Part shown: positions 33,791 to 46,686 of the stretch, one piece after another
How the letters are laid out: each line of letters starts with the position of its first letter
Numbering within the stretch: position 1 is the stretch's first letter
Source of the DNA: Nanobdellota archaeon
Lineage (GTDB): Archaea; Nanobdellota; Nanobdellia; Pacearchaeales; GW2011-AR1
Assembly: GCA_038046005.1 (NCBI GenBank)
Contig: JBBSXB010000007.1
Location: 586 to 64,585, forward strand
DNA length: 64,000 nucleotides
Reading direction: 5' to 3'
The notes under the pieces: model-generated
Databases searched by the model: none
Seen by the model: only the letters and a program-made list of their open reading frames with translations
Told to the model about the DNA's origin: nothing
Made by a program: the position numbers and the translations under genes

Positions 33791-34027
33791 ATGGTGAAAA
33801 GTAGATTAAAAAGTACTGTAAAAAGTGCGATTAATCGTGCTATAATTAAGGAGGCCATAATAAAGACAATTGTGGGTTCAGAAAAACCACTTTCTACAGA
33901 AGAAATAGCAAAAAATCTATCTAAATCTTGGCATACCATTATTCGTTATTGTTTGGATTTAACAAACGAAGACAAACTCGTTAAGTTTGAAATTGGGAGG
34001 ATAAGTGTCTGGCAAATTAAAAAATGA
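33791..34027 (+). CDS. small winged-helix DNA-binding protein
   Basis: I chose the ATG at 33791 because it is ~25 nt after TTTAAATAC. PLSTEEIAKNLSKSWHTIIRYCLDL...KLVKFEIGRISVW is an HTH plus wing pattern. Its stop overlaps the next start (ATGA). Confidence 0.55.
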   Translation: MVKSRLKSTVKSAINRAIIKEAIIKTIVGSEKPLSTEEIAKNLSKSWHTIIRYCLDLTNEDKLVKFEIGRISVWQIKK

Positions 34028-37000
34028 AAAAAATAGCGATTAAGAATGAAAAGCAATTTGCAACTTGGTTTAAAAAGAACTTTAAAAAAATTGGTTACTC
34101 AAAAATTATTAGAGGAGACATTTCAAAATGTCCAGATTTTGTTATGTTAAAAAATGGAAAAGAGGTGAGGGTTGAATTGGAAACTACTTCTTCCAATTTC
34201 ATTGCCCATAAACACTCTTATGACGATGTTGATGAGATTGTTTGTTTAGTTAAAGATGTTAAATTAGATAAGCCGGTGATAGTTGTTGATGAATTAAAAT
34301 ATGAAGGAAAAATGAAAGTTACACTAAGCATAGATAGTAAGACATATTCCGAATTCCAAAAATATTGTGAAGATCATGCCATAATGCTTTTTAAAAAGAT
34401 TGAGCTGGCAATCAAAGATATTATGAAAAAAAAGAGGGTCTTGATGTTTTTTTTGTTTTCTTTTATTTTAATTTTTTCTTTGCAAGGAATTCTTGGCGAC
34501 CAAATATTCTTTGATGGATTTGAATCTGGGGGAGTGGCCAATTGGACTTTATGGAGCAATGCTGGGGCAAACACAAACTGGACTGCTTCTTCGGTAGATC
34601 CTGCTTCTGGATTATTCCATGCTAATGGGAATCCAAGGACAACGAATGATCCTGGAATAGTGATGAATCGAAGCATGAGCACTTTAGGATATCAAAATAT
34701 CACTCTTAATTATTCCAGAAAACTTAACATTGGAACAGCTCTTAAGACATTCAGAGTCAGATGGTATAATGGTAGCACTTGGGCCATTTTGGAAAATGCA
34801 AATAACACTGTGGATTCCGTTTATCTAAATAAGAGTTTTGTTTTTCCGTCTTCTGCTAGCAATAATTCAAATTTTAAAATAAGTTTTGAGTGCACAGAAG
34901 GCACAACGACTGATTTTTGCAGGGTCGATAATGTGAACATAACTGGAAACAGCATCGCTTCAAATACTGCTCTAGGAGTAACAATAAATTCGCCTACAAA
35001 TTTGACTTTTAATGCATCAACTTTGAATCTGAATGTTAGCGTCACTGGCTCAAATATAAGCAGTGTCTGGATTTCTTTAGATGGTGGGCAAAATATTACT
35101 TATGCGCATAGAAATGGCACAATAGACTTTGGATATCTTGACTTAACTTTTGTTGACGATTTTGATTCTTATTCTGAAGGAAGCAACGCCAGCCCAGTGT
35201 GGGATGTCAAGCCCTGGTTTCAAACAGCAATAATAGAGAATAGGACTTACAAACTTTATAACGAGACTGCATTAATTGATGCATTGGCTTCTATAAACGG
35301 TTTTAGTCAGCTGGATTATTGGGCTTCTGCAAAGGTTAGGGTTCCAAGCGGCTCAAATGGAAGTGCTTATCTGACTCCGAGATTTGGCGATGTAAATAAC
35401 AAGTATGAGATCGCTCTGGATTATGATTTCAGCTCTATCAATATAAATAAAGCCGTGAATGGAAATTGGTCTAGTCTGGCTGCTTTGTGGACAGGGAATT
35501 TACCAACGCCTGTTTTTGTTAGCAAGAACGAGTGGCATTTACTTGGCTCTAGGGTGAAAGGGAACAATATTTCTGCTTATGTCGATGGGCAATTAGCATT
35601 GAACGTTACAGATTCAGATTTGAACAATGCAACTTTTTCAGGATTTTCTTTGATAGCTCTGGATGACGTGGCCCTTCACACGGCTTATTTTGACGATTTA
35701 GAAATTCATAAGGAACTAACTTATGGTTCGCATACTTTAACTGTTTATGTAAACAACACTAATGGAGAAATTAATTCAAGTGCTGTGACTTTCTTTATAA
35801 ACACTAGTAGTCAAATCCCATTTTTCTCTAATTATTCTGAGAGTCCCTCTAATAATTCTAATTATTCTCAAGGGCAGTTTTATGAATTTAATGTTACAAT
35901 AACCAGCACTAATGTTTCTGCTGTGAAAATAAACTTTAATGGGACTAACTATACGGCTATATACTCAATGGGAAGCAGTGTCTACTCTTTTAACAGATCT
36001 GATTTAGCTGCTGGCACTTACACTTATTATTGGTGGGCCAACGACAGTTTTGGAAATACAAATACAAGCTCTAGCAGAGATTATGCTGTGACAAAGGCAT
36101 CAACAACAACCAATATCATTGCGGTTCCTAGTTCTCCTATAATCTATGGAACGCAAAGTAATTTCTCATGTTCCAACTCTGCCGGGCTTTCAACAACCTT
36201 ATACATTGATGGAACAGATAAATCAAGCGAAAAAAACATTAATTTAACGAGAGCTGCAGGCAGTTACATTGTCAATTGCACTTCTGTCACCAACCAAAAT
36301 TATTCTGCAAGTTCTCAACAGTCTGCCTATGTTATCAATAATGCCTCTGGCCAGGTCGGATTATCCCTCAATGGTGTTGCAGATAACTTAAGTTTAGTTT
36401 ACCCAAGTCAGATAAACGCTTCAGCTTTAACGCTTTACGGAGCGATAATCATTTATAGGAATGGCGTTGATGTTACTTCGCAAAACAACCAAAATGTAAG
36501 CCTGGGGGCCGATTATTATAATTATACTGCTGTAAGCTATGGAGATGCGAATCATAGTTCAGCCAGTTTAACTTATTGGGTTAATGTAACGCAAAACAGC
36601 TCTGAAATATTCTTATATCTAAATAATTCTAGATTAAATATCACTATTGCTCAAGGGAATACTATTTCCATAAATTCAACACTGCAACAAGGACAGGGAA
36701 ATATATTTGTTTATAATGGAGGAAGCTTGATTTACTGGGGAGATTCTCCATCATATAACTTTACAACTTTTTCATCTTTTGGGCTTTATAATGTAACTGC
36801 AATATACCAACAAACACAAAACTATACAGGTTCTTTTGAAACTTGGTTCGTAAATGTTACAGGAACTTCACAGAATTTGACAGCCACAACTCCTCAAATA
36901 AAATTGTTTTATCCAAGCTATGTCTCGACTTATGGAGATAATGCTGCAATTCCATTAAACTTTTCTGTTGCTGGGAATAACACGCTTTCTTGTTGGTATA

Positions 37001-38589
37001 CCTTTGATGGTTTGAACAATATTTCAATTCCAGGCTGCTTAAACACAACTTTCTTGAAGTCTGATGGATTATACAACCTAACAGTTTATGCAAATGAAAG
37101 CGTGCAAGGGTTGCAGAACTTTACGGCGAAGAGATTTTATGTAAACAACAACAATCCTACGATCCATTTACTTTCCCCTGAAAATGAATTTTACACAAAT
37201 AGAAGTTTGGTTAATTTTAGCTACATTCCAACATCGTTGAATTTAAGCCTTTGCGAATTGTGGGGGAATTTTAGTGGAATGTTTTCATTAAATCAATCCA
37301 ACAATAGTGTTATTTCTGATGTAGCGCAATTATTCCAAAATCGAGAATTAGGTGATGGAGCATATTCTTGGGCGGTTGCCTGTAATGCAAGCGGAAATTA
37401 TTCAATCACCGGTAATAGGACTTTTTTTGTGGACAATAACGCTCCAAATGTGACTCTGACAAATTCAGTCTCTGGAACGCAGTCTTCTGCAGGTGTTAAT
37501 TTTGAATATTTAATCAATGATTCAAGTCCAACAACTTGCTTATTCAATGTGACCTCAATCTCCAGTGGCAGTGTTGTCTTCAGCAACCTGACACAGAGAT
37601 GTGACAATATAATTTTGGTTTTTAACGTTGAGAATTTAACTAATGGTGAATATCAATCAAATTTTGTTGCAACTGATGCTGCAGGAAACTCACAAACTTC
37701 AACAGCTACCTTTACAGTTGTGGTTAATTCAGTCACTACTTCTTCCGGTGGAGGCGGTGGCGGGGGCGGAGGAGCCATTCCATTAAGGTTTGGATTGTCA
37801 ATAAGCAATATCACTGACATAAATGTCAACAATGTTGGAATAAAGAAAATTTTGAGTTTAAAAGCAAAAAATACTGGAACAGGCTATCTTAATGATTGCA
37901 CTTTTAAGAGCAAAGGCGCATTCGCTTCATGGACGACAAAAACTGAAACTAAAGGACTGGCTGCGGGAGAAGGATACGAATTTATTTTTGATGTGAACAT
38001 TCCTGAAAAAACTGTCTCTGGAAATTACAAGATTGAATTGGAAGTGGTCTGCAAAGAAGCTAACGCTTCTACGTCATTTAACATAGCAATCACAGACAAG
38101 GCTTTGGACTTTACATTGGACGGCGTTGAAAGAAGCGGACAGGACAAAGTCAAGGTAGATTATTCCATTGGAGAACTTTTGGGAAAAGACCAGAATGTTG
38201 ACATACAGTTTTTCCTTTATGACAAGGATGGTAAAAAAATAGGAGAGATTAATGAGACAAGATTTGTCAATAAAAGCTCCAAAGAACAGTTTGAAAATTT
38301 TATTCCAATTCCTTCTGACCTTCAAGGTGAAATTGGCCTGTTAATAAATTTCAATTCTGAAAAGTATTCTGGATTTGTGCAGGAAAAAGTCATTCTTGGA
38401 AGCTCAATTAGCGGTTTTACTATTCTTGACAGACTTGGCGGACGTGATAATGTCTTTAGTGTCTTAATTGTCATATTATTTTTAGCATTTGCTTTCTTTA
38501 TTGTCAGAAGGATAAGAAGGCATAATGAATCTGTGAAGCATCATACCAGAAAAATGATAAGTTCCTATGTCAAAAAGAGAAAAGGCTAA
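34024..38589 (+). CDS. 1,521-aa ORF: N-terminal PD-(D/E)xK-like plus RHH-like module (aa 1-133) continuous with a giant sequon-rich surface protein (internal ATG and signal peptide at 34423; C-terminal TM anchor)
   Basis: aa 1-133 contain GYSKIIRGDISKCPDFVMLKNGKEVRVELE and KVTLSIDSKTYSEFQKY. These are followed by MKKKRVLMFFLFSFILIFSLQGILG, a DGFESG module, many Ig-like segments, a GGGGGGGG linker, two beta-sandwich-like domains, and the TM helix VLIVILFLAFAFFIV with an RRIRRH tail. Confidence 0.8.
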   Translation: MKKIAIKNEKQFATWFKKNFKKIGYSKIIRGDISKCPDFVMLKNGKEVRVELETTSSNFIAHKHSYDDVDEIVCLVKDVKLDKPVIVVDELKYEGKMKVTLSIDSKTYSEFQKYCEDHAIMLFKKIELAIKDIMKKKRVLMFFLFSFILIFSLQGILGDQIFFDGFESGGVANWTLWSNAGANTNWTASSVDPASGLFHANGNPRTTNDPGIVMNRSMSTLGYQNITLNYSRKLNIGTALKTFRVRWYNGSTWAILENANNTVDSVYLNKSFVFPSSASNNSNFKISFECTEGTTTDFCRVDNVNITGNSIASNTALGVTINSPTNLTFNASTLNLNVSVTGSNISSVWISLDGGQNITYAHRNGTIDFGYLDLTFVDDFDSYSEGSNASPVWDVKPWFQTAIIENRTYKLYNETALIDALASINGFSQLDYWASAKVRVPSGSNGSAYLTPRFGDVNNKYEIALDYDFSSININKAVNGNWSSLAALWTGNLPTPVFVSKNEWHLLGSRVKGNNISAYVDGQLALNVTDSDLNNATFSGFSLIALDDVALHTAYFDDLEIHKELTYGSHTLTVYVNNTNGEINSSAVTFFINTSSQIPFFSNYSESPSNNSNYSQGQFYEFNVTITSTNVSAVKINFNGTNYTAIYSMGSSVYSFNRSDLAAGTYTYYWWANDSFGNTNTSSSRDYAVTKASTTTNIIAVPSSPIIYGTQSNFSCSNSAGLSTTLYIDGTDKSSEKNINLTRAAGSYIVNCTSVTNQNYSASSQQSAYVINNASGQVGLSLNGVADNLSLVYPSQINASALTLYGAIIIYRNGVDVTSQNNQNVSLGADYYNYTAVSYGDANHSSASLTYWVNVTQNSSEIFLYLNNSRLNITIAQGNTISINSTLQQGQGNIFVYNGGSLIYWGDSPSYNFTTFSSFGLYNVTAIYQQTQNYTGSFETWFVNVTGTSQNLTATTPQIKLFYPSYVSTYGDNAAIPLNFSVAGNNTLSCWYTFDGLNNISIPGCLNTTFLKSDGLYNLTVYANESVQGLQNFTAKRFYVNNNNPTIHLLSPENEFYTNRSLVNFSYIPTSLNLSLCELWGNFSGMFSLNQSNNSVISDVAQLFQNRELGDGAYSWAVACNASGNYSITGNRTFFVDNNAPNVTLTNSVSGTQSSAGVNFEYLINDSSPTTCLFNVTSISSGSVVFSNLTQRCDNIILVFNVENLTNGEYQSNFVATDAAGNSQTSTATFTVVVNSVTTSSGGGGGGGGGAIPLRFGLSISNITDINVNNVGIKKILSLKAKNTGTGYLNDCTFKSKGAFASWTTKTETKGLAAGEGYEFIFDVNIPEKTVSGNYKIELEVVCKEANASTSFNIAITDKALDFTLDGVERSGQDKVKVDYSIGELLGKDQNVDIQFFLYDKDGKKIGEINETRFVNKSSKEQFENFIPIPSDLQGEIGLLINFNSEKYSGFVQEKVILGSSISGFTILDRLGGRDNVFSVLIVILFLAFAFFIVRRIRRHNESVKHHTRKMISSYVKKRKG

Positions 38590-41105: not shown

Positions 41106-42038
41106 TTATGCTACTGCAACACTCCAAGCACCATACGCAGATGACGAATATGATTGCTGGCTTATTGATGGGGGAAGCCCTTTAAGGCAGAAATAAATCT
41201 GTTCCTGCCCCGATGTCTCATTATTGTTATTTATAGAATTGTTCCCTTTGAATAATATAGACGAAGTGACATTTGTCGATGTTGCGTTAACCATTGCTGT
41301 TCCCGTACATCCTTGCGAGGTATTTTCAACTGTGAAATTTGCAGCATATATAAAGTCAGTAATTGTCGTTTCACCTCTAAGGTTGTATGATGTAACGTTG
41401 ACACTTAGCGCATTTGCATTACCTGTATTGTTAACGATGATTGGATCATTATTTGAACCAACATCTGTGTCGGTAGATGAAAGTGTCTGCCATGTCATTG
41501 CTGTTGGAGACATTGCCATTGCCGTAAGCAAATTGTAGGTGAAAGTTGGTGTTGAATTTGTAGCGTACCCTCCATTTTTATCAGTTATTGTTGTGTTGAC
41601 TGTCCATGCACCATTCACATCATAATAGTACATGTTTATAGTGCATGTAAAATTAATATTATTTCCTACACCAACAGAAAGATTTATGCAAGAAGTATTT
41701 GATCTTGTGGTTTCGCTTGCTTTCTGAAAATAGGCTGTTGCGGTGCTCGTGTTAATGTTCGAAGCTCCGTCAGTGTCTGTTGCGGTGAAATTAAAAGTTA
41801 TTGACTTTGTTGTTGATTCTGTCGGGTTTTGTGCAGAGATTGCATTAACTATTGGGATTGTTGGGGCTGAATTTCCCAAAGTAATGTTTAGTGTTGTGGT
41901 GCTGCTTGTTGCAAATCCAGTTATCTCTGCTACTTTGTTAAAAAAGTTAGTATGATTTAAAACCAATATTAAGAATATCAGCAGAACAGCTCCAGCAATA
42001 AAATACACTCCTCCTTTACCCATCAAGGTTTTAGTCAT
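41106..42038 (-). CDS. truncated paralog (310 aa) of the C-terminal extracellular part of the 1,501-aa surface protein
   Basis: It has its own N-terminal anchor (VYFIAGAVLLIFLILVL). From APTIPIVNAISAQ onward it is homologous to the upstream large gene, including 422 nt of perfect identity. Confidence 0.7.
   Translation of the reverse strand: MTKTLMGKGGVYFIAGAVLLIFLILVLNHTNFFNKVAEITGFATSSTTTLNITLGNSAPTIPIVNAISAQNPTESTTKSITFNFTATDTDGASNINTSTATAYFQKASETTRSNTSCINLSVGVGNNINFTCTINMYYYDVNGAWTVNTTITDKNGGYATNSTPTFTYNLLTAMAMSPTAMTWQTLSSTDTDVGSNNDPIIVNNTGNANALSVNVTSYNLRGETTITDFIYAANFTVENTSQGCTGTAMVNATSTNVTSSILFKGNNSINNNNETSGQEQIYFCLKGLPPSISQQSYSSSAYGAWSVAVA
41124..41545. repeat. 422-bp perfect direct repeat, copy 1 (in the 310-aa gene)
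   Basis: Identical base for base, compared by eye, to 42645-43066 (offset 1,521 bp). The flanks are diverged and mosaic. Confidence 0.9.
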
Positions 42039-42047
42039 TTTTCCTTT

Positions 42048-45000
42048 TTAAATATTATTGTTATTCAGCTTCTTTGCCGCCCTTGCATAAATTGTCCATA
42101 TGTTCCTTTGGTCTCTTGAAAGCAGACTGGCTATCTCAACAAATTTCATTTGTTTGGCTTTTAGGTATACAACGAGAGATTCTAATGTGGTTAAGTTTTT
42201 GTTCTTGAAAATTTCTATTGGAATTTTTGCCCCTTCTTTAACATCAAAAGGTTCTTTTTGCTTTTTCACTGACTTTTTGTAAGAAGTCCAAATGGTTCTT
42301 TCATCTCTTCCTATCATATCTGAAATCTCTTTGTAGTTCATGTTTAGATTTTCTTTCATGTATTTGACAATCGTCTCTAAACCTCCAAGGTTTTTTGAGA
42401 ATATTGTTGCAGGTATGTTCACTTCTTTAGTATTGTTCAGTATTTCTACAATCTCTTTTTTGCTTATCTTGTGTTTTTCTTTTAGCTTGTCAATTATAAT
42501 GTTGACCATTTCCTTCTTATTCAAGGAATATTCTTCCTTTAACTCTTCTAAAATAAGTTCAAGTGCTTCTATTAATTTGTCATCTTTTACATTTTTCTTC
42601 TTCTTTTTTCTTGGAATCAACAAGACCAAACTTATTCTTATAACCCAAGCACCATACGCAGATGACGAATATGATTGCTGGCTTATTGATGGGGGAAGCC
42701 CTTTAAGGCAGAAATAAATCTGTTCCTGCCCCGATGTCTCATTATTGTTATTTATAGAATTGTTCCCTTTGAATAATATAGACGAAGTGACATTTGTCGA
42801 TGTTGCGTTAACCATTGCTGTTCCCGTACATCCTTGCGAGGTATTTTCAACTGTGAAATTTGCAGCATATATAAAGTCAGTAATTGTCGTTTCACCTCTA
42901 AGGTTGTATGATGTAACGTTGACACTTAGCGCATTTGCATTACCTGTATTGTTAACGATGATTGGATCATTATTTGAACCAACATCTGTGTCGGTAGATG
43001 AAAGTGTCTGCCATGTCATTGCTGTTGGAGACATTGCCATTGCCGTAAGCAAATTGTAGGTGAAAGCTTCTGAAGAATTTTCAACATATAATCCGGTGTT
43101 ATCCTGAACGGTAGCATTTATTGTCCATGCGCCATTCAAATCAAAATACCACATGTCTATTGTGCATGTAAAATTAATATCGTTTCCAGAGGCGGCTGTT
43201 TGATTTATACAAGAAGTATTTGATCTTGTTGTTTCCCCTGCTTTTTGAAAATATGCTCTTGCAGTGCTTATGTTCACAGTTGATCCTCCATTCAAATCTG
43301 TTGCAGTGAAATTAAAAGTTATTGACTTTGTTGTTGATTCTGTTGGGTTTTGTGCAGAGATTACATTAACTATTGGGATTGTTGGGGCTACTTGGCTGAT
43401 TATATTAACAACAAAACTATTGTTCAATCCAAGATTATTTGCAGAATCATTTGCATAAACATTTATTATTTTATTGCCATCCGCAAGATTTGTTAAAGGT
43501 ATAGATGTGGTGTTACACCATCCATTAGAAACAGCCAGCGTTGTATTTGTTCCGTTCACTTCAATATTACAGAAACTAGGGGGGGTTGTTGCGTCAATTA
43601 CAGAGATATTCAACGTTAGAGTATCTGTGTTTTGCTTTTGGGTGGCATTTGTGTAGACTGGCAAAGTAATTGTCGGTGCTGTTGTGTCAATCCAGACTGC
43701 ATAAGAATTATTTAAAGCCAAATTTCCAGCACTATCGTTGGCGTAAGCATTTATTGTCTGATTTCCGTCTGCAATTCCCGTCAATGCATAAGTTCCGTTG
43801 CACCATCCACCAGATGCTGCAACTGTCTGGTTTGCATTGCCATTTACATTTATCGAGCAGTATGAAGCCCCAACTCCTACGTCTGAGATTGATAAATTGA
43901 ATGTCAGGCTTTGGGTGTTTTGTTTTTGAGTTGCGTTCGTGTAAACTGGCAAGGTTATTGTTGGTGCTGCGTTTTGGATTGTGTAAGCTTGTAAAGTTGT
44001 AACATTCCAATTATTTGATGAATCGTTTGCGTATTGTTTCCACCCTATTGTTTTTCCTTCGCATTCATTTGGCACTGTCCAGCTCATGTTACTCCAGTTA
44101 GTTGTTCCTGCAAAAGTTGAGTTTATTGTGACATTTGCAAGAGTGTTACAGCTTGCGCCTGTGGAATTAATCTCTAAAATCACATAACTTAGCTGAGTGT
44201 CGTCTGTCCAATTTGTGTTGTGCGAAACTGTTGAGCCTGGAAGAGGGTTTGAGTCGTTTGTCAAGGGATTGCTATAATTTGGGGCTGCTACATCTGGATC
44301 AGGCGTTGTTTTATTGACTACAAAATCATCAACCCATAAATTTTCTCCGGAGCCAAGAACTGCGTTGAATCTTACTCTAAAATTGGACTTGAAATATTGG
44401 CTGTCAGATGTAGTGAAACTTACCCATTGCCAGGTGTCTTCTGTTCCGCTTTCAAGGGATTCAGTTATTGCGTCATAAGCTGAGCCGTCAAAGAAATAAA
44501 AGTCTATATCTGTTGCATCTAAATCATCATCCATAAACCAAAAACTCACATTTATGAATGTTGCATCGCTAGTGTCAATGTCGTCTGTTATTAAATCGCC
44601 CTCATTTCCATTAGAAGCCAGCACAGATTGTGCTCCTGCATGTTTTTGCGCTGTTGATATATCCCAAGTCGTAGCACCATTCCCATCCCATTTAGCTAAA
44701 GCAGACTCAAAATCATCTGAAAATATACTAGTAATCGGATCAACTATATAATCAAATTCGATACTTCCTCCAACAACTTTTAAGTCAAATGTGTCTTGAG
44801 AACTTTGCAAGTTTGTTAAGAATATTTTATTATCTTGGTTCGAATTTATCGAGGAGAATTCTGCAATCTTTGTTGTTTGATTTAATTCATAGACCTCAAT
44901 CCTTGGATTTCCAGAGATTACTCTTGGAAATAGAGTTATATCATTTTCTGAAGTTAAATTTTTTTCAAATGTAACTCTTACATAATCTTGATTTGAGATT

Positions 45001-46553
45001 TCTTCACTCCATACATTGTCAAGAGTTTTTACTTGATCGTAAATATTGGAGATGAAAGTTTTATCTTTGTATAAATGTTCAGCCTTGGTTATCACGATAA
45101 TATCAAAGGTCTGGTTTGAAAGATGAGGAACAATCCATTCAATGTAATCATAAATTCCATTTCCATCTTTATCTTGGACATTTTCTGGAGAGATATAGGC
45201 ATTTTGCTCTTCCCAGAAGATTTTTACTGTCGAAGGATTTTTTATGTTTAAATTTTCGCTGAGATTAGCAAAAGCCAAGACATCAGTGTAGTGGACATTA
45301 TCTGGCGAGGAAATTTTTATTTTTTTCCCTCTCGAGATTTGTTCTTCTACAACAGATGGAGCAGGAGTTTCATAACTTATTTCATAGTCTCCTGGATTAT
45401 CTTGAATTGTTACCTCTTTATCTTGAGCTAGATTGTCAACGTTAAACTTAGTTTTTCCCCCTTGCGAGTTTAATGTTTCTATCTTTTCTGCTTCTTTTGG
45501 AATTTTGACATTTGGATTTTTTTCTTCAGCAATAAATCTTTTTGTCCATTTTACTGGCTGACCTAAAATCGCTCTGCTTTGGGTTGTTGTTATCCTTTCT
45601 TCAGCAATGGTGTTATTTTTTTCTGAAGTTATGTTTGTTTCTGGCGTGATATTGGTTTTTGGCTCTTCCTGAATAATTTCTTTCAGCGTTTGATACTTGG
45701 CTGATTCTAAAAATAATTCTGCGTTGTCTATCTCAATCCTTAAATTGTAAGAAGTTTTGCTGAGATTCAATCCTGTGAGGTCGCAAGTTTCTTCACAGAT
45801 GTTTGCAAATTTTTTTGTCATTTCTTTTTCGATTATGTTAACTTGGCTTTCATTTCCTTTTTCAGTTTGGTCTTGCGAGACGTTAGTTGTGTTTTCAGAG
45901 GAAGGAGACTCCCCTTGGAAAGGACTCGACTCGTTTGAATCATTTTGAGGAGTCTCATTTATTCCTTCTGAATTTGAAATTGATGCACCTGTGATATAGT
46001 CTGTTTCTTTTATTTTTGTACTATCTAGAATTAACAAATTATCAAGATAAATTTTAACTGAGCCCTTTACTTTTATTAATCCGCTTAGTTTTAGATATCC
46101 AAGTTGCCCAAAATTTTCTGGCTTCCATTCATAATTTGTTGATTCATTAAAATTTATATTTAGAGTCTGGCTAAATTCCTGATTTTGAACATTTGGCTGA
46201 GCAAAAAATCCTGTCAATCCGGGCTTAAAATAAAAAATTGTTAAAGATAAAATACCTAGAATCAATATAAAAACAAAAAAGTTAAAACTAAACCTTTTGT
46301 GCGTATGTTTTTTTATATGTCTTTCAGAATAGCCGATAAAGTGATCATAATGGTGAATTAACTCTTGGATATTTCTTCCATTGTGCTTTTTGTGCGAGAT
46401 TTCTAGATACTCTGCTTGAGAGATTTTTCCTTTTGAACAAGCTTCATTTAACTCTAAAATATAGTTTTGGAGTTTTTCTTTTCCGACTTTTGCAACCTTT
46501 AATGCTTTTTTGTACTCTTCTATTGGGGCTTTTGCTAGTCGAGTCTTTTCCAT
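42048..46553 (-). CDS. 1,501-aa surface protein: N-terminal cytoplasmic segment and TM, DxFES module, tandem Ig-like repeats, then a C-terminal double HTH tail
   Basis: N-terminal TM helix FNFFVFILILGILSLTIFYF and a long sequon-rich ectodomain. After ...SAYGAW comes a short hydrophobic stretch VIRISLVLLIP plus KKKKK, then two HTH repeats (LETIVKYMKENLNMNYKEISDMIGRDERTIWTSY and LESLVVYLKAKQMKFVEIASLLSRDQRNIWTIY). Confidence 0.8.
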   Translation of the reverse strand: MEKTRLAKAPIEEYKKALKVAKVGKEKLQNYILELNEACSKGKISQAEYLEISHKKHNGRNIQELIHHYDHFIGYSERHIKKHTHKRFSFNFFVFILILGILSLTIFYFKPGLTGFFAQPNVQNQEFSQTLNINFNESTNYEWKPENFGQLGYLKLSGLIKVKGSVKIYLDNLLILDSTKIKETDYITGASISNSEGINETPQNDSNESSPFQGESPSSENTTNVSQDQTEKGNESQVNIIEKEMTKKFANICEETCDLTGLNLSKTSYNLRIEIDNAELFLESAKYQTLKEIIQEEPKTNITPETNITSEKNNTIAEERITTTQSRAILGQPVKWTKRFIAEEKNPNVKIPKEAEKIETLNSQGGKTKFNVDNLAQDKEVTIQDNPGDYEISYETPAPSVVEEQISRGKKIKISSPDNVHYTDVLAFANLSENLNIKNPSTVKIFWEEQNAYISPENVQDKDGNGIYDYIEWIVPHLSNQTFDIIVITKAEHLYKDKTFISNIYDQVKTLDNVWSEEISNQDYVRVTFEKNLTSENDITLFPRVISGNPRIEVYELNQTTKIAEFSSINSNQDNKIFLTNLQSSQDTFDLKVVGGSIEFDYIVDPITSIFSDDFESALAKWDGNGATTWDISTAQKHAGAQSVLASNGNEGDLITDDIDTSDATFINVSFWFMDDDLDATDIDFYFFDGSAYDAITESLESGTEDTWQWVSFTTSDSQYFKSNFRVRFNAVLGSGENLWVDDFVVNKTTPDPDVAAPNYSNPLTNDSNPLPGSTVSHNTNWTDDTQLSYVILEINSTGASCNTLANVTINSTFAGTTNWSNMSWTVPNECEGKTIGWKQYANDSSNNWNVTTLQAYTIQNAAPTITLPVYTNATQKQNTQSLTFNLSISDVGVGASYCSINVNGNANQTVAASGGWCNGTYALTGIADGNQTINAYANDSAGNLALNNSYAVWIDTTAPTITLPVYTNATQKQNTDTLTLNISVIDATTPPSFCNIEVNGTNTTLAVSNGWCNTTSIPLTNLADGNKIINVYANDSANNLGLNNSFVVNIISQVAPTIPIVNVISAQNPTESTTKSITFNFTATDLNGGSTVNISTARAYFQKAGETTRSNTSCINQTAASGNDINFTCTIDMWYFDLNGAWTINATVQDNTGLYVENSSEAFTYNLLTAMAMSPTAMTWQTLSSTDTDVGSNNDPIIVNNTGNANALSVNVTSYNLRGETTITDFIYAANFTVENTSQGCTGTAMVNATSTNVTSSILFKGNNSINNNNETSGQEQIYFCLKGLPPSISQQSYSSSAYGAWVIRISLVLLIPRKKKKKNVKDDKLIEALELILEELKEEYSLNKKEMVNIIIDKLKEKHKISKKEIVEILNNTKEVNIPATIFSKNLGGLETIVKYMKENLNMNYKEISDMIGRDERTIWTSYKKSVKKQKEPFDVKEGAKIPIEIFKNKNLTTLESLVVYLKAKQMKFVEIASLLSRDQRNIWTIYARAAKKLNNNNI
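42645..43066. repeat. 422-bp perfect direct repeat, copy 2 (in the 1,501-aa gene)
   Basis: Identical to 41124-41545. The identical antisense shadow ORFs 41224-41538 and 42745-43059 in the ORF track confirm it. Confidence 0.9.
43389..43967 (-). repeat. tandem in-frame repeat, 2 x ~96 aa (APTITLPVYTNATQKQNT... units)
   Basis: Units 43680-43967 and 43389-43679 both start with APTITLPVYTNATQKQNT and share conserved Cys and N-x-S/T positions. A third APTI-initiated unit follows and forms the start of the region shared with the 310-aa paralog. Confidence 0.8.
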
Positions 46554-46626
46554 ACTTATTATGTATGTATTAAAACTTATAAATGTATGTAAAAATATTA
46601 AAAATACTTATTATGTGTGTATTAAA
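46552..46626. repeat. 23-nt direct repeat ATACTTATTATGT(A/G)TGTATTAAA x2 in the divergent intergenic region
   Basis: Copies at 46552-46574 (overlapping the start codon of the 1,501-aa gene) and 46604-46626, with one mismatch. Confidence 0.75.
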
Positions 46627-46641
46627 TGTATGGGCCAAAAA

Positions 46642-46686
46642 TTTGTAGTGCCTACAAAAGATTTAAATAGTTTTTTGTAGTGCCTA
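46642..46686 (+). promoter_or_regulatory. glyS promoter: TATA box (46661-46670) bracketed by two TTTGTAGTGCCTA repeats
   Basis: The 13-mer occurs at 46642-46654 (extended to the palindrome TTTGTAG-TGC-CTACAAA) and at 46674-46686. ATTTAAATAG between them lies ~25 nt upstream of the ATG at 46691. Confidence 0.55.

What the first reader, a model, noticed from the sequence alone, without database searches (positions are those of the whole stretch)
42048..42644. Double helix-turn-helix tail fused to the C-terminus of a giant extracellular protein, beginning exactly where the repeat identity ends
Immediately after the last shared residues (...SAYGAW) the 310-aa paralog stops (SVAVA*). The 1,501-aa ORF instead continues with a short hydrophobic stretch (VIRISLVLLIP), a KKKKK stop-transfer-like run and ~190 aa. 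That segment contains two copies of a sigma-70-region-4/LuxR-like HTH preceded by I-P-x-x-I-F (IPATIFSKNLGGLETIVKYMKENLNMNYKEISDMIGRDERTIWTSYKKS and IPIEIFKNKNLTTLESLVVYLKAKQMKFVEIASLLSRDQRNIWTIYARAAKK). One possibility is a membrane-tethered regulator with a huge ectodomain and a cytoplasmic DNA-binding domain (ToxR/CadC-like logic). The other is that an independent small HTH gene has been fused in frame by the recombination event; an in-frame ATG exists at ...KKEMVNIII. Either would be unusual for an archaeal surface protein.
Basis: partly seen in the sequence, partly recalled or inferred. Interest (0 to 1): 0.62.

Follow-up and report, generated by a model that had tools for sequence, protein, structure and literature searches.

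The report
Giant surface protein carrying its own regulator
A 1,501-residue surface protein of a tiny DPANN archaeon really does end in two DNA-binding domains; this design is shared by hundreds of related proteins and most likely lets the protein switch its own surface-protein operon on or off.

Summary
The ORF 42048-46553 (-) runs without a stop from a sequon-rich ectodomain through a short hydrophobic stretch (WVIRISLVLLIP) and RKKKKK into about 180 aa with two tandem HTH units. The units are 45% identical, AF2 pLDDT is above 93, and the fold is the sigma-70 region 4 / LuxR / Tfx type.

The fusion is not a recombination accident. The same ectodomain-end + hydrophobic + basic + 2xHTH module lies in one open frame in 81 of 301 genomes of the order. 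The tail family has 2,051 protein clusters, mostly at the C-terminus of 1,000-5,900-aa proteins.

New here: the gene's promoter carries a 19-nt imperfect palindrome, ATACAYACATAATAAGTAT, twice. The copies flank the TATA box and are unique in the genome. They sit at -70 and -18 of the start codon in about 23 of 26 giant homologues whose 5' end is held. Stand-alone soluble 2xHTH relatives carry related repeats in their own promoters. The tail is therefore most likely an autoregulator of the five-gene surface operon.

The main open point is topology. The hydrophobic segment is only about 12-14 aa, and AF2 reads its first half as the last beta-strand of the ectodomain.

The 422-nt perfect repeat reflects lineage-wide concerted evolution with the adjacent 310-aa paralog.

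The parts
42048..46553 (-). Giant ORF, 1,501 aa. It is the first gene of a five-gene surface-protein operon (giant, 310-aa paralog, 193 aa, 531 aa, 87 aa).
   Evidence: One search gives the ORFs; the gaps between the genes are 9, 7, 30 and 41 nt. The same gene order is found in L002, L003 and L006.
46293..46553 (-). N-terminal domain of about 87 aa, K/E-rich and helical, presumed cytoplasmic. It ends in KKHTHKR just before TM1.
   Evidence: The domain is conserved in nine of the ten orthologous regions fetched (MGRT.LAKASI...). It contains no sequons, and K+R make up 22%. It has no Pfam family.
46227..46292 (-). TM1, FSFNFFVFILILGILSLTIFYF (aa 88-109), a strong signal anchor.
   Evidence: Kyte-Doolittle 19-residue mean is 2.38. 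An equivalent TM lies at aa 63-129, mostly about 90-120, in 47 of 64 long homologues; most of the rest are N-terminally incomplete or show no such TM.
42648..46226 (-). Ectodomain, aa 110-1302. It is rich in N, S and T and built from Ig-like modules.
   Evidence: It has 56 N-x-S/T sequons (4.7 per 100 aa), against 1.1 per 100 aa in the tail. AF2 models its last domain as a beta-sandwich.
42612..42647 (-). Short hydrophobic segment WVIRISLVLLIP (aa 1303-1314), the candidate second membrane crossing.
   Evidence: The family pattern is W-x-[IV]-x-[IV] followed by 6-10 hydrophobic residues. The distance from W to the basic cluster has a median of 14 aa, mostly 12-14. AF2 reads VIRISL as the last beta-strand of the ectodomain.
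42594..42611 (-). Polybasic cluster RKKKKK (aa 1315-1320).
   Evidence: The cluster is present in all fused homologues examined. It fits the positive-inside rule.
42420..42593 (-). Linker of three helices (aa 1321-1378).
   Evidence: AF2 predicts helices at tail residues 2-22, 26-41 and 45-54 with pLDDT 58-74. Some homologues lack this linker (P0037, P0163, P0166).
42261..42419 (-). HTH unit 1 (aa 1379-1431), NIPATIF...RDERTIWTSYKKSVKK.
   Evidence: Supported.
42057..42227 (-). HTH unit 2 (aa 1443-1499), KIPIEIF...RDQRNIWTIYARAAKK.
   Evidence: Supported.
46604..46622 (-). Distal operator candidate, ATACACACATAATAAGTAT (-71 to -53 of the start codon).
   Evidence: Supported. A copy sits at about -70 in about 22 of 26 giant orthologues.
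46576..46591 (-). Half-site TACATACA directly followed by the TATA box TTTATAAG. The TATA box starts at -32 of the ATG in the window and at -31 in 10 of the 14 aligned homologous promoters.
   Evidence: Supported. This spacing places the transcription start at or next to the ATG, so the mRNA is leaderless (inference from canonical archaeal promoter geometry).
46552..46570 (-). Proximal operator candidate, ATACATACATAATAAGTAT. It lies between the TATA box and the start codon, and its last two bases are the AT of the ATG.
   Evidence: Supported. A copy sits at about -18 in 23 of 26 giant orthologues.
41106..42038 (-). 310-aa paralog. It has an N-terminal anchor and a copy of the giant's two membrane-proximal Ig-like domains. 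It ends 5 aa after the conserved W.
   Evidence: Supported. A paralog lies next to the giant in 37 loci, and the two evolve in concert.
42645..43066 (.). 422-nt stretch identical to 41124-41545, a recent gene-conversion tract.
   Evidence: Supported.

Best explanation
The tail is a genuine, conserved C-terminal module of the giant protein.

Proposed topology. The protein has two cytoplasmic ends: an 87-aa N-terminal domain and the C-terminal tail. The roughly 1,200-aa glycosylated ectodomain loops out between a strong TM1 and a very short second hydrophobic segment followed by RKKKKK.

Proposed function of the tail. It carries two tandem HTH units of the sigma-70 region 4 / LuxR / Tfx type and acts as a transcription regulator of its own gene. 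It binds the 19-bp imperfect palindromes ATACAYAnATAATAAGTAT. The half-site is ATAC[A/T]TA and the two half-sites are 5 bp apart. The palindromes lie at -71..-53 and -19..-1, with a half-site abutting the TATA box. Together they cover the core of a leaderless promoter.

Proposed outcome. Because the proximal site lies between the TATA box and the transcription start, the most likely effect is autorepression of the five-gene surface-protein operon. This would couple the amount (or state) of the giant protein in the membrane to its own synthesis.

What is shown:
- the fusion, its conservation and the HTH fold;
- the conserved operator architecture;
- the association of such repeats with genes of this HTH family, whether fused or free.

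What is inferred:
- that the tail is the protein that binds these sites;
- the sign of regulation;
- the cytoplasmic location of the tail;
- whether it acts while tethered or after cleavage.
For: 1. The fusion is conserved.
- The query (ectodomain end + hydrophobic segment + K-run + 2xHTH) matches 81 of 301 genomes of the order.
- About two-thirds of the tail-covering matches lie in single open frames of 1,000-4,533 aa. Most of the shorter ones are cut by contig ends.
- The 'stops inside' in that table are only the terminal stops.
- Seven partial metagenome proteins show the same junction.
- An all-against-all HMMER search finds 2,051 clusters (1,630 at E<=1e-10), and most top hits are at the extreme C-terminus of proteins of 1,000-5,919 aa.

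2. The HTH fold is supported.

3. Composition fits cytoplasmic termini.
- The tail and the N-terminal domain have K+R of 20-22% and 0-1.1 sequons per 100 aa.
- The ectodomain has K+R of 5.5% and 4.7 sequons per 100 aa.
- Soluble 2x and 4x HTH homologues without a signal peptide exist.

4. The operator is specific and conserved.
- The motif occurs only twice in the 875-kb genome, both copies at this promoter. The chance expectation is 0.05 per window.
- It is conserved in nine of the ten orthologous upstream regions fetched and in L003, while the rest of the spacer diverges.
- Of 301 genomes, 59 have the motif (reversed-pattern control: 16 single hits). 47 of those 59 are among the 81 genomes whose sequence matches the giant's last 238 aa (odds ratio about 24 by my count).
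- In about 23 of 26 loci that hold the 5' end of a 1,207-3,319-aa tail-bearing ORF, a motif copy lies at about -18, 3.5-10 kb from the tail. In about 22 of them a second copy lies near -70.

5. The motif travels with the HTH family.
- Stand-alone 155-200-aa 2xHTH genes carry related repeats flanking their own TATA box. Examples are ATACTTACATTGTAAGTAT twice in L111 and ATACATACATATTAGGTAA directly before the ATG in L104.
- An exact direct repeat of at least 12 nt lies in the upstream 150 nt of 9 of 19 such genes, against 7 of 264 control ORFs.

6. The tail is the only member of this HTH family in the genome.
Against: - No binding data exist. The operator association could be a phylogenetic footprint for another factor.
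- The second hydrophobic segment is only about 12-14 aa and usually has R or K at its fourth position. Its Kyte-Doolittle 19-residue mean is about 1.1 by my own hand calculation, and it fell below the 1.6 threshold.
- AF2 models VIRISL as the last beta-strand of the ectodomain and leaves VLLIPRKKKKK unstructured at pLDDT below 50.
- The paralog ends right after that strand. By this reading only 5-8 hydrophobic residues would be left to cross the membrane.
- Three related loci have an in-frame stop in the linker: L003 (TAA), L004 (TAG) and L005 (TAG). A separate HTH product may therefore be tolerated.
- Pfam support is borderline, and Foldseek gives no significant whole-model match.
Confidence: 0.65

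Rival explanations
1. The tail is released. The protein is made as a fusion, and an intramembrane or juxtamembrane protease then cuts at the short hydrophobic segment. The freed soluble 2xHTH regulator acts on the operators. This would be regulated intramembrane proteolysis, as with RseA/sigma-E, SREBP or Notch. It is a variant of the main explanation in which tethering is only a latent state.
For: - The hydrophobic segment is marginal and often carries a conserved R or K.
- The genome encodes an M50 site-2 protease, a rhomboid and an archaeosortase-family protein.
- Soluble homologues act without a tether.
Against: - M50 and rhomboid proteases are found in all 14 control genomes, so their presence says little.
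- No conserved cleavage motif was identified.
- No proteomic data are available.
Confidence: 0.2
2. The HTH part is a separate product. It would be made from an internal start or after a stop, and the long open frame would be functionally irrelevant. The giant protein would effectively end at the K-run, like its neighbours, which end in a TM helix plus a basic tail.
For: - Split variants exist: L003 has TAA where the near-identical P0003 has GAA; L004 and L005 have an in-frame TAG in the linker.
- Neighbouring surface proteins end right after a TM helix and a basic cluster.
- AF2 sees no TM helix here.
Against: - The frame is uninterrupted in all 30 best genome loci and in about 45 further loci, over tail identities down to about 35%.
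- The internal Met is not conserved.
- No operator or promoter copy lies inside the gene.
- L004 has only 2.6x coverage.
Confidence: 0.1
3. The tail is extracellular. The hydrophobic stretch would not cross the membrane, and the HTH domains would sit outside. There they might bind environmental or host DNA, or serve as a protein-interaction module. Another factor would then bind the promoter repeats.
For: - AF2 assigns WVIRISL to the ectodomain fold and predicts no helix.
- The continuous hydrophobic run is too short for a canonical TM helix.
Against: - A polybasic cluster follows the segment in every homologue.
- The tail has cytoplasmic-type composition and few sequons.
- Family members without any signal peptide are soluble and carry related repeats in their own promoters.
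- The genome has no other member of the family to bind the operators.
Confidence: 0.05
4. The fusion is an accident of the recombination that made the 422-nt repeat, or an assembly artefact across the repeat.
For: - Identity between the two copies ends exactly at the junction.
- A 422-nt perfect repeat can mislead short-read assembly.
- Reads could not be checked.
Against: - The same junction and tail occur in dozens of independent assemblies whose local repeats differ.
- The gene order giant-with-tail followed by paralog is conserved.
Confidence: 0.02

Closest known systems
Transmembrane transcription regulators (TTRs: ToxR, TcpP, CadC and relatives), surveyed in bacteria and archaea by Demey et al. 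2023 (PMC10269533)
   Same: One polypeptide combines an extracytoplasmic part, membrane anchoring and a DNA-binding domain that is thought to act on the chromosome from the membrane. By that paper's operational definition (a DNA-binding domain plus at least one TM region), this protein qualifies.
   Different: - The DNA-binding part is C-terminal and consists of two tandem region-4/LuxR-like HTH units, not an N-terminal OmpR-type winged helix.
- The protein has two membrane passes, with a 1,000-5,000-aa glycosylated ectodomain between them.
- The second pass is abnormally short.
- A conserved N-terminal cytoplasmic domain is present.
- The words DPANN and Nanoarchaeota do not occur in the paper's main text.
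ArnR / ArnR1 of Sulfolobus acidocaldarius (PMC6396743)
   Same: They are archaeal membrane-bound one-component transcription factors that control surface structures.
   Different: - From my own knowledge, ArnR has an N-terminal HTH, a HAMP-like region and C-terminal TM helices.
- It has no large ectodomain and no tandem region-4-type HTH.
- Its sequence is unrelated: nothing of that kind was found.
Tfx-type archaeal regulators (PDB 8hnp / 8hno, 'archaeal transcription regulator'), LuxR/GerE/RcsB C-terminal domains and sigma-70 region 4
   Same: - The HTH unit has the same fold. Foldseek aligns single units locally at 0.7-1.4 A over 41-47 residues.
- Sequence similarity is weak: 8hnp at E 0.003 and Sigma70_r4_2 at 25.7 bits.
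   Different: - Those proteins are soluble and carry one HTH per chain, working as dimers or inside a sigma factor.
- Here two units are in tandem in one chain (four in some relatives).
- The protein lacks sigma region 2, the TFX_C domain and a receiver domain.
Co-component sensors ToxR/ToxS and VtrA/VtrC (PMC9214523)
   Same: A membrane regulator is encoded next to a small membrane-anchored partner whose extracytoplasmic domain is thought to pair with the regulator's own. Here the adjacent 310-aa paralog co-evolves with the giant's membrane-proximal domain.
   Different: - The partner here is a paralogous copy of the regulator's own domain, kept similar by gene conversion. It is not a distinct lipocalin-like fold.
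- Pairing between the two is only inferred.

Membership tests
Pfam Sigma70_r4_2 (PF08281) | Score at or above the gathering threshold of 25.7 bits | tested here: inconclusive
   The tail alone scores 25.7 bits, exactly at the cut-off. Inside the full protein it scores 17.2 bits. Each unit alone scores 15.3 and 15.9 bits.
Sigma-70 / ECF sigma factors | Region 2 plus region 4, with NCBIfam TIGR02937 at or above 42.9 bits | tested here: not met
   TIGR02937 scores 17.3 bits, and no region 2 hit was found. Archaea have no sigma factors (general knowledge).
LuxR/GerE HTH (PF00196) | A sequence match to the family model | tested here: not met
   GerE was not listed at E<=0.1 or E<=1. Only local fold likeness was found: GerE 1fse at 1.4 A over 47 residues and RcsB 5vxn_B at 0.7 A over 44 residues.
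Transmembrane transcription regulators (operational class of PMC10269533) | A DNA-binding domain and at least one predicted TM region in one protein | tested here: met
   HTH units. TM1 at aa 88-109 has a Kyte-Doolittle mean of 2.38.
Transmembrane transcription regulators | The DNA-binding domain lies on the cytoplasmic side and acts on DNA while anchored | not testable with these tools
   This is inferred from the basic cluster, the composition, the soluble homologues and the operators. AF2 does not model a second TM helix.
ToxR/CadC-type regulators | An N-terminal OmpR/PhoB-type winged helix (Trans_reg_C) followed by a single TM helix | tested here: not met
   No such hit was found. The DNA-binding part is C-terminal and of another fold.
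Tfx family | An N-terminal HTH plus a TFX_C domain | tested here: not met
   Only the HTH resembles 8hnp (E 0.003 over 39 residues). No TFX_C hit was found.
Archaeosortase-type C-terminal sorting signal (PGF-CTERM and the like) | Motif, TM helix and basic cluster at the very C-terminus | tested here: not met
   181 residues follow the basic cluster. An archaeosortase-family gene does exist in the genome.
Autoregulated transcription factor | Cognate repeated sites in the gene's own promoter, conserved across orthologues and found with free family members too | tested here: met
   Supported. Binding itself was not tested.

The most novel reading that the evidence does not exclude
The giant protein may be a direct contact or force sensor of an episymbiotic DPANN cell.
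- The segment W-x-I-x-I-LLVALIP would switch between two states. In one it completes the membrane-proximal Ig-like domain as its last beta-strand. In the other it spans the membrane.
- The co-evolving 310-aa paralog ends in exactly that strand. It would compete or pair with the membrane-proximal domain in a donor-strand-like manner.
- Engagement or pulling of the ectodomain by a host cell would then change how the two HTH domains reach the operators. Attachment would be converted directly into transcription of the surface operon without any kinase or second messenger.
Probability: 0.12. Interest if true: 0.9.

Novelty: new variant of a known kind. Interest (0 to 1): 0.66.

Why it matters
DPANN archaea have tiny genomes, few recognised regulators and no known way of sensing the host cells they live on. 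Their giant surface proteins are usually treated as passive adhesins.

A large, unannotated family emerges here: 2,051 clusters in which such giants carry a tandem HTH module, together with a sharply conserved operator pair in their own promoters. This gives three things:
- a concrete, testable regulatory circuit in organisms that are otherwise hard to study;
- a candidate cis-element and DNA-binding domain for annotating thousands of MAG proteins;
- an extreme case for the open question of how membrane-tethered regulators reach DNA, including a membrane segment that seems too short to span a bilayer.

It also explains the perfect repeat in the window as part of a lineage-wide concerted evolution between the regulator's membrane-proximal domain and a small partner protein.

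Tried and rejected
Neither the assembly across the 422-nt repeat nor an internal transcript could be checked.
- 'Stops inside' first looked like frequent in-frame stops. Translating the loci showed that they are the normal terminal stops.
- Stop-codon recoding was considered because of the in-frame TAA and TAG in L003-L005. I rejected it: three different positions, two different codons, and no such stops in about 75 other loci.
- The first related-loci run with the broad alignment A2 failed because it had no conserved stretch. A narrower alignment, A3, worked.
- Whole-model Foldseek searches gave no significant hit (best E 0.02-0.03). Only local single-unit alignments are informative.
- The weak hits of the membrane-proximal domain to donor-strand-complemented pilins, TasA and the Saci_0406 thread (E 0.05-0.3) are a lead only.
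- The N-terminal domain and the linker have no Pfam family.
- The sigma-70-type promoter scanner was not used because it does not apply to archaeal promoters.
- Four literature searches found no description of this family.
Full report
**Observation**

The window has a 1,501-aa ORF at 42048-46553 (-). It is followed after 9 nt by a 310-aa ORF at 41106-42038 (-). The two share a direct DNA repeat. 422 nt are identical (41124-41545 = 42645-43066), and about 300 nt more follow at 57-97% identity per 60-nt block.

Identity stops at the codon for W1303. The paralog then reads SVAVA-stop. The giant continues WVIRISLVLLIP-RKKKKK and 181 further residues. The last 120 residues hold two units that are 45% identical to each other (E 5e-15).

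**The tail is an HTH module**

- Alone, the tail scores 25.7 bits against Pfam Sigma70_r4_2, exactly the gathering score. Each unit alone reaches 15-16 bits.
- NCBIfam sigma-factor models are far below their cut-offs.
- AF2 with 29 homologues gives pLDDT 86.5, and above 93 over both units. Each unit is a short strand (IP..I) plus three helices. Three less confident helices precede the units.
- Foldseek finds no significant whole-model match. Single units superpose on RcsB (0.7 A over 44 residues), GerE (1.4 A over 47), region 4 of SigF and SigR, and an archaeal regulator, 8hnp (0.7 A over 47).
- 8hnp is also the best sequence match among solved structures (E 0.003).

The fold is therefore the region-4 / LuxR / Tfx type. 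The protein is not a sigma factor, not a LuxR-family member by sequence, and not a Tfx protein.

**The fusion is old and widespread**

- A word-indexed search with the tail found 34 relatives. Seven are partial genes on short contigs that show the same junction...SGQEQ.YFCL...QSYS...G.W-x-I-[RK]-ILLVA.IPA-RRKKKK-linker-HTH-HTH.
- The last 238 residues were searched in 301 genomes of the same order, and 81 genomes matched. About two-thirds of the tail-covering matches lie in single open frames of 1,000-4,533 aa. Most of the shorter ones are cut by contig ends.
- The 'stops inside' in that table are the ordinary terminal stops.
- An exhaustive HMMER search of 1.84 billion representatives found 2,051 clusters. 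1,630 of them have E<=1e-10. Most of the best lie at the extreme C-terminus of proteins of 1,000-5,919 aa.
- Record titles name Nanoarchaeota, Ca. Pacearchaeota and Ca. Woesearchaeota MAGs.
- The window's genome is 875 kb and 98% complete, and it holds a single copy of the tail.

**Family architecture**

Among the 64 long homologues:
- 47 have a strong TM helix at aa 63-129, mostly about 90-120. Most of the rest are N-terminally incomplete or show none.
- 54 have a short C-terminal hydrophobic segment starting with W, followed by a K/R cluster and then two (sometimes four) HTH units.

A conserved N-terminal domain (MGRT.LAKASI...) precedes the first TM helix in nine of the ten orthologous regions fetched. 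P0166 (346 aa) is a miniature with only about 85 ectodomain residues, yet it keeps both hydrophobic segments and the tail.

In the window protein the N-terminal domain and the tail are K/E-rich. K+R make up 20-22%, and they have 0 and 1.1 sequons per 100 aa. The ectodomain is rich in N, S and T, with K+R at 5.5% and 4.7 sequons per 100 aa.

Soluble proteins of 155-200 aa (two units) and 310-370 aa (four units) without a signal peptide belong to the same family. All this points to both termini being cytoplasmic.

**A conserved operator pair in the gene's own promoter**

A first-stage note on repeats in the glyS-giant spacer prompted me to look here. The 137-nt spacer reads, towards the giant gene:

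ATACACACATAATAAGTAT - 12 nt - TACATACA-TTTATAAG - 5 nt - ATACATACATAATAAGT-ATG.

- The 19-mer occurs nowhere else in the genome. The chance expectation is 0.05 per window.
- The same arrangement is present in L003 and in nine of the ten orthologous upstream regions fetched, while the rest of the spacer diverges.
- Across 301 genomes the 18-mer with at most one mismatch occurs in 59, usually as a pair 51-52 nt apart. The reversed control pattern gives 16 single hits.
- 47 of those 59 genomes are among the 81 that match the giant's last 238 aa. The odds ratio is about 24 by my count.
- 26 loci hold the 5' end of a tail-bearing ORF of 1,207-3,319 aa. In about 23 of them a copy lies at about -18 of the ATG. 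In about 22 a second copy lies near -70.
- The consensus is ATACATA(A/C)ATAATAAGTA. This is an imperfect palindrome of ATAC[A/T]TA half-sites 5 bp apart.
- The TATA box starts at -32 in the window and at -31 in 10 of the 14 aligned promoters. This puts the transcription start at or next to the ATG, so the mRNA is leaderless. That is an inference from canonical archaeal promoter geometry.
- The proximal site lies between the TATA box and the start. This is the classical position of an archaeal repressor.

**The motif travels with the HTH family, not with the giant protein**

Nineteen stand-alone 2xHTH genes in the fetched loci were examined, and most carry related repeats around their own TATA box. 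Examples:
- the perfect palindrome ATACTTACATTGTAAGTAT twice in L111 and L112;
- ATACATACATATTAGGTAA abutting the ATG in L104;
- TTACATATATTATAAGTAA in L105-L107;
- repeated TTACTTACATAGTAA in L123.

An exact direct repeat of at least 12 nt lies in the upstream 150 nt of 9 of 19 such genes, against 7 of 264 control ORFs from the same loci. This is the usual comparative signature of an autoregulated transcription factor. The window's genome has no other family member. The tail is therefore the obvious candidate to bind the operators, but binding has not been measured.

**What would be regulated**

The giant gene is followed, with gaps of 9, 7, 30 and 41 nt, by the 310-aa paralog and by genes for 193-, 531- and 87-aa membrane-anchored proteins. 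The same order is found in L002, L003 and L006. The promoter thus probably drives a five-gene surface operon.

**The unresolved point: the second membrane crossing**

- From W to the basic cluster there are mostly 12-14 residues (median 14), usually with R or K at position 4. The segment fell below the 1.6 Kyte-Doolittle threshold.
- AF2 on the last 350 residues, with 41 homologues, gives pLDDT 77.8. It models VIRISL as the final beta-strand of the membrane-proximal Ig-like domain. It leaves VLLIPRKKKKKNVKDDK at pLDDT below 50, with no helix.
- The paralogs end exactly after that strand: WSVAVA*, WLVAVIT*, WTVIIS*, WTVKIL*.
- Against this, P0166 keeps the W segment directly after an unrelated part of the ectodomain.
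- From my own knowledge, very short Leu-rich segments flanked by lysines can be inserted by the Sec translocon.

I therefore keep 'cytoplasmic tail' as the best reading, but the mode of crossing is not explained. Proteolytic release is a serious variant. An M50 protease, a rhomboid and an archaeosortase-family gene are present, though the first two are near-universal.

**Split variants**

- L003 is a syntenic NCBI MAG locus. It has TAA where the near-identical metagenome protein P0003 has GAA. This yields a 1,400-aa product plus a 150-aa HTH ORF.
- L004 (2.6x coverage) and L005 have an in-frame TAG in the linker.

These are 3 loci against about 75 intact ones. They may be errors, pseudogenes or tolerated splits.

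**The repeat**

In 37 loci a paralog of about 310 aa follows the giant gene. The last 150 ectodomain residues of the giant and of the paralog are 71.5% identical (median) within a genome. Between genomes the figure is only about 41%, whichever pair is compared.

The 422-nt perfect tract in this window is thus the freshest instance of lineage-wide concerted evolution. This suggests that the two membrane-proximal domains must match, for example because they pair. The tail 'begins where identity ends' simply because the paralog copies the ectodomain up to its last strand.

**Comparison with known systems**

The closest class is the transmembrane transcription regulators such as ToxR, TcpP and CadC. 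They were surveyed in bacteria and archaea in PMC10269533, whose main text does not mention DPANN or Nanoarchaeota. ArnR/ArnR1 of Sulfolobus are the studied archaeal examples (PMC6396743).

This family meets the operational definition (a DNA-binding domain plus a TM region) but differs in several ways:
- a C-terminal tandem region-4-type HTH;
- a giant ectodomain between two membrane passes;
- an abnormally short second pass;
- a co-evolving partner paralog.

Four literature searches found no description of it. Two earlier follow-up notes of this scan reached the same reading for relatives in other genomes. They are not independent evidence, but I reproduced their main claims here.

**Verdict**

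- The membrane-tethered-regulator reading is supported in outline, and the recombination-fusion reading is refuted.
- This is a new variant of a known kind, belonging to a large unannotated DPANN family.
- My confidence is about 0.95 that the fusion is real and conserved, and about 0.7 that the tail binds the promoter repeats.
- It is much lower for the exact topology and for the sign of regulation.

Noticed in passing
window 46645-46654 and 46677-46686 (-); also genome contig C2:5742-5775: A second repeat, TAGGCACTAC twice, flanks a TATA-like box on the glyS side of the divergent spacer. It is conserved in several orthologous spacers (L037, L040, L045, L051, L059). The only other copies in the genome are a pair on contig C2. 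It is probably the operator of a different regulator acting on glyS.
   Followed up: partly
L003 7990-8030; L004 170-195; L005 1-70: Three related loci carry an in-frame stop in the linker between the K-run and the HTH units. In L003 the TAA replaces the GAA of the near-identical metagenome protein P0003. These are split or pseudogenised versions, or sequencing errors.
   Followed up: partly
L022/L072 (G099:C93), L029 (G034:C38), G205:C7, G093:C2: Some giant proteins carry four or more HTH units. In L022 a block of about 183 aa (linker plus two units) is duplicated almost exactly in tandem. Soluble four-unit proteins of 310-370 aa are common.
   Followed up: partly
P0166 (346 aa): A miniature family member. 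It has the N-terminal cytoplasmic domain, TM1, only about 85 ectodomain residues, the W-T-I-T hydrophobic segment, a K-run and two HTH units.
   Followed up: no
window 41106-42038 and 37 related loci: The paralog of about 310 aa next to the giant gene evolves in concert with the giant's membrane-proximal domain. Identity is 71.5% within a genome and about 41% between genomes.
   Followed up: yes
model mbc68fd4c7876 (giant aa 1152-1310): The weak Foldseek hits of the membrane-proximal beta-domain are to proteins that use donor-strand complementation: DraD, SafD, HdaB, the TasA fibre and the Saci_0406 thread. E-values are 0.05-0.3, so they are not significant.
   Followed up: no
window 34024-38589 (+): The neighbouring 1,521-aa surface protein ORF starts with about 130 cytoplasmic-looking residues. 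A nuclease-like segment and a ribbon-helix-helix-like segment run without a stop into a signal peptide (MFFLFSFILIFSLQG).
   Followed up: no
genome contig C12:13516-14268 (+): An archaeosortase/exosortase-family match (48.9 bits, above the cut-off) lies inside a 744-aa open frame. Only 1 of the 14 control genomes has such a match.
   Followed up: no
L052, L059, L066, L097, L107, L109, L111, L114, L115, L123: Several contigs that carry this DPANN-type gene are labelled Patescibacteria, Bacillota, Paceibacterota or Methanosarcinales in their records. These are probably binning or labelling errors.
   Followed up: no
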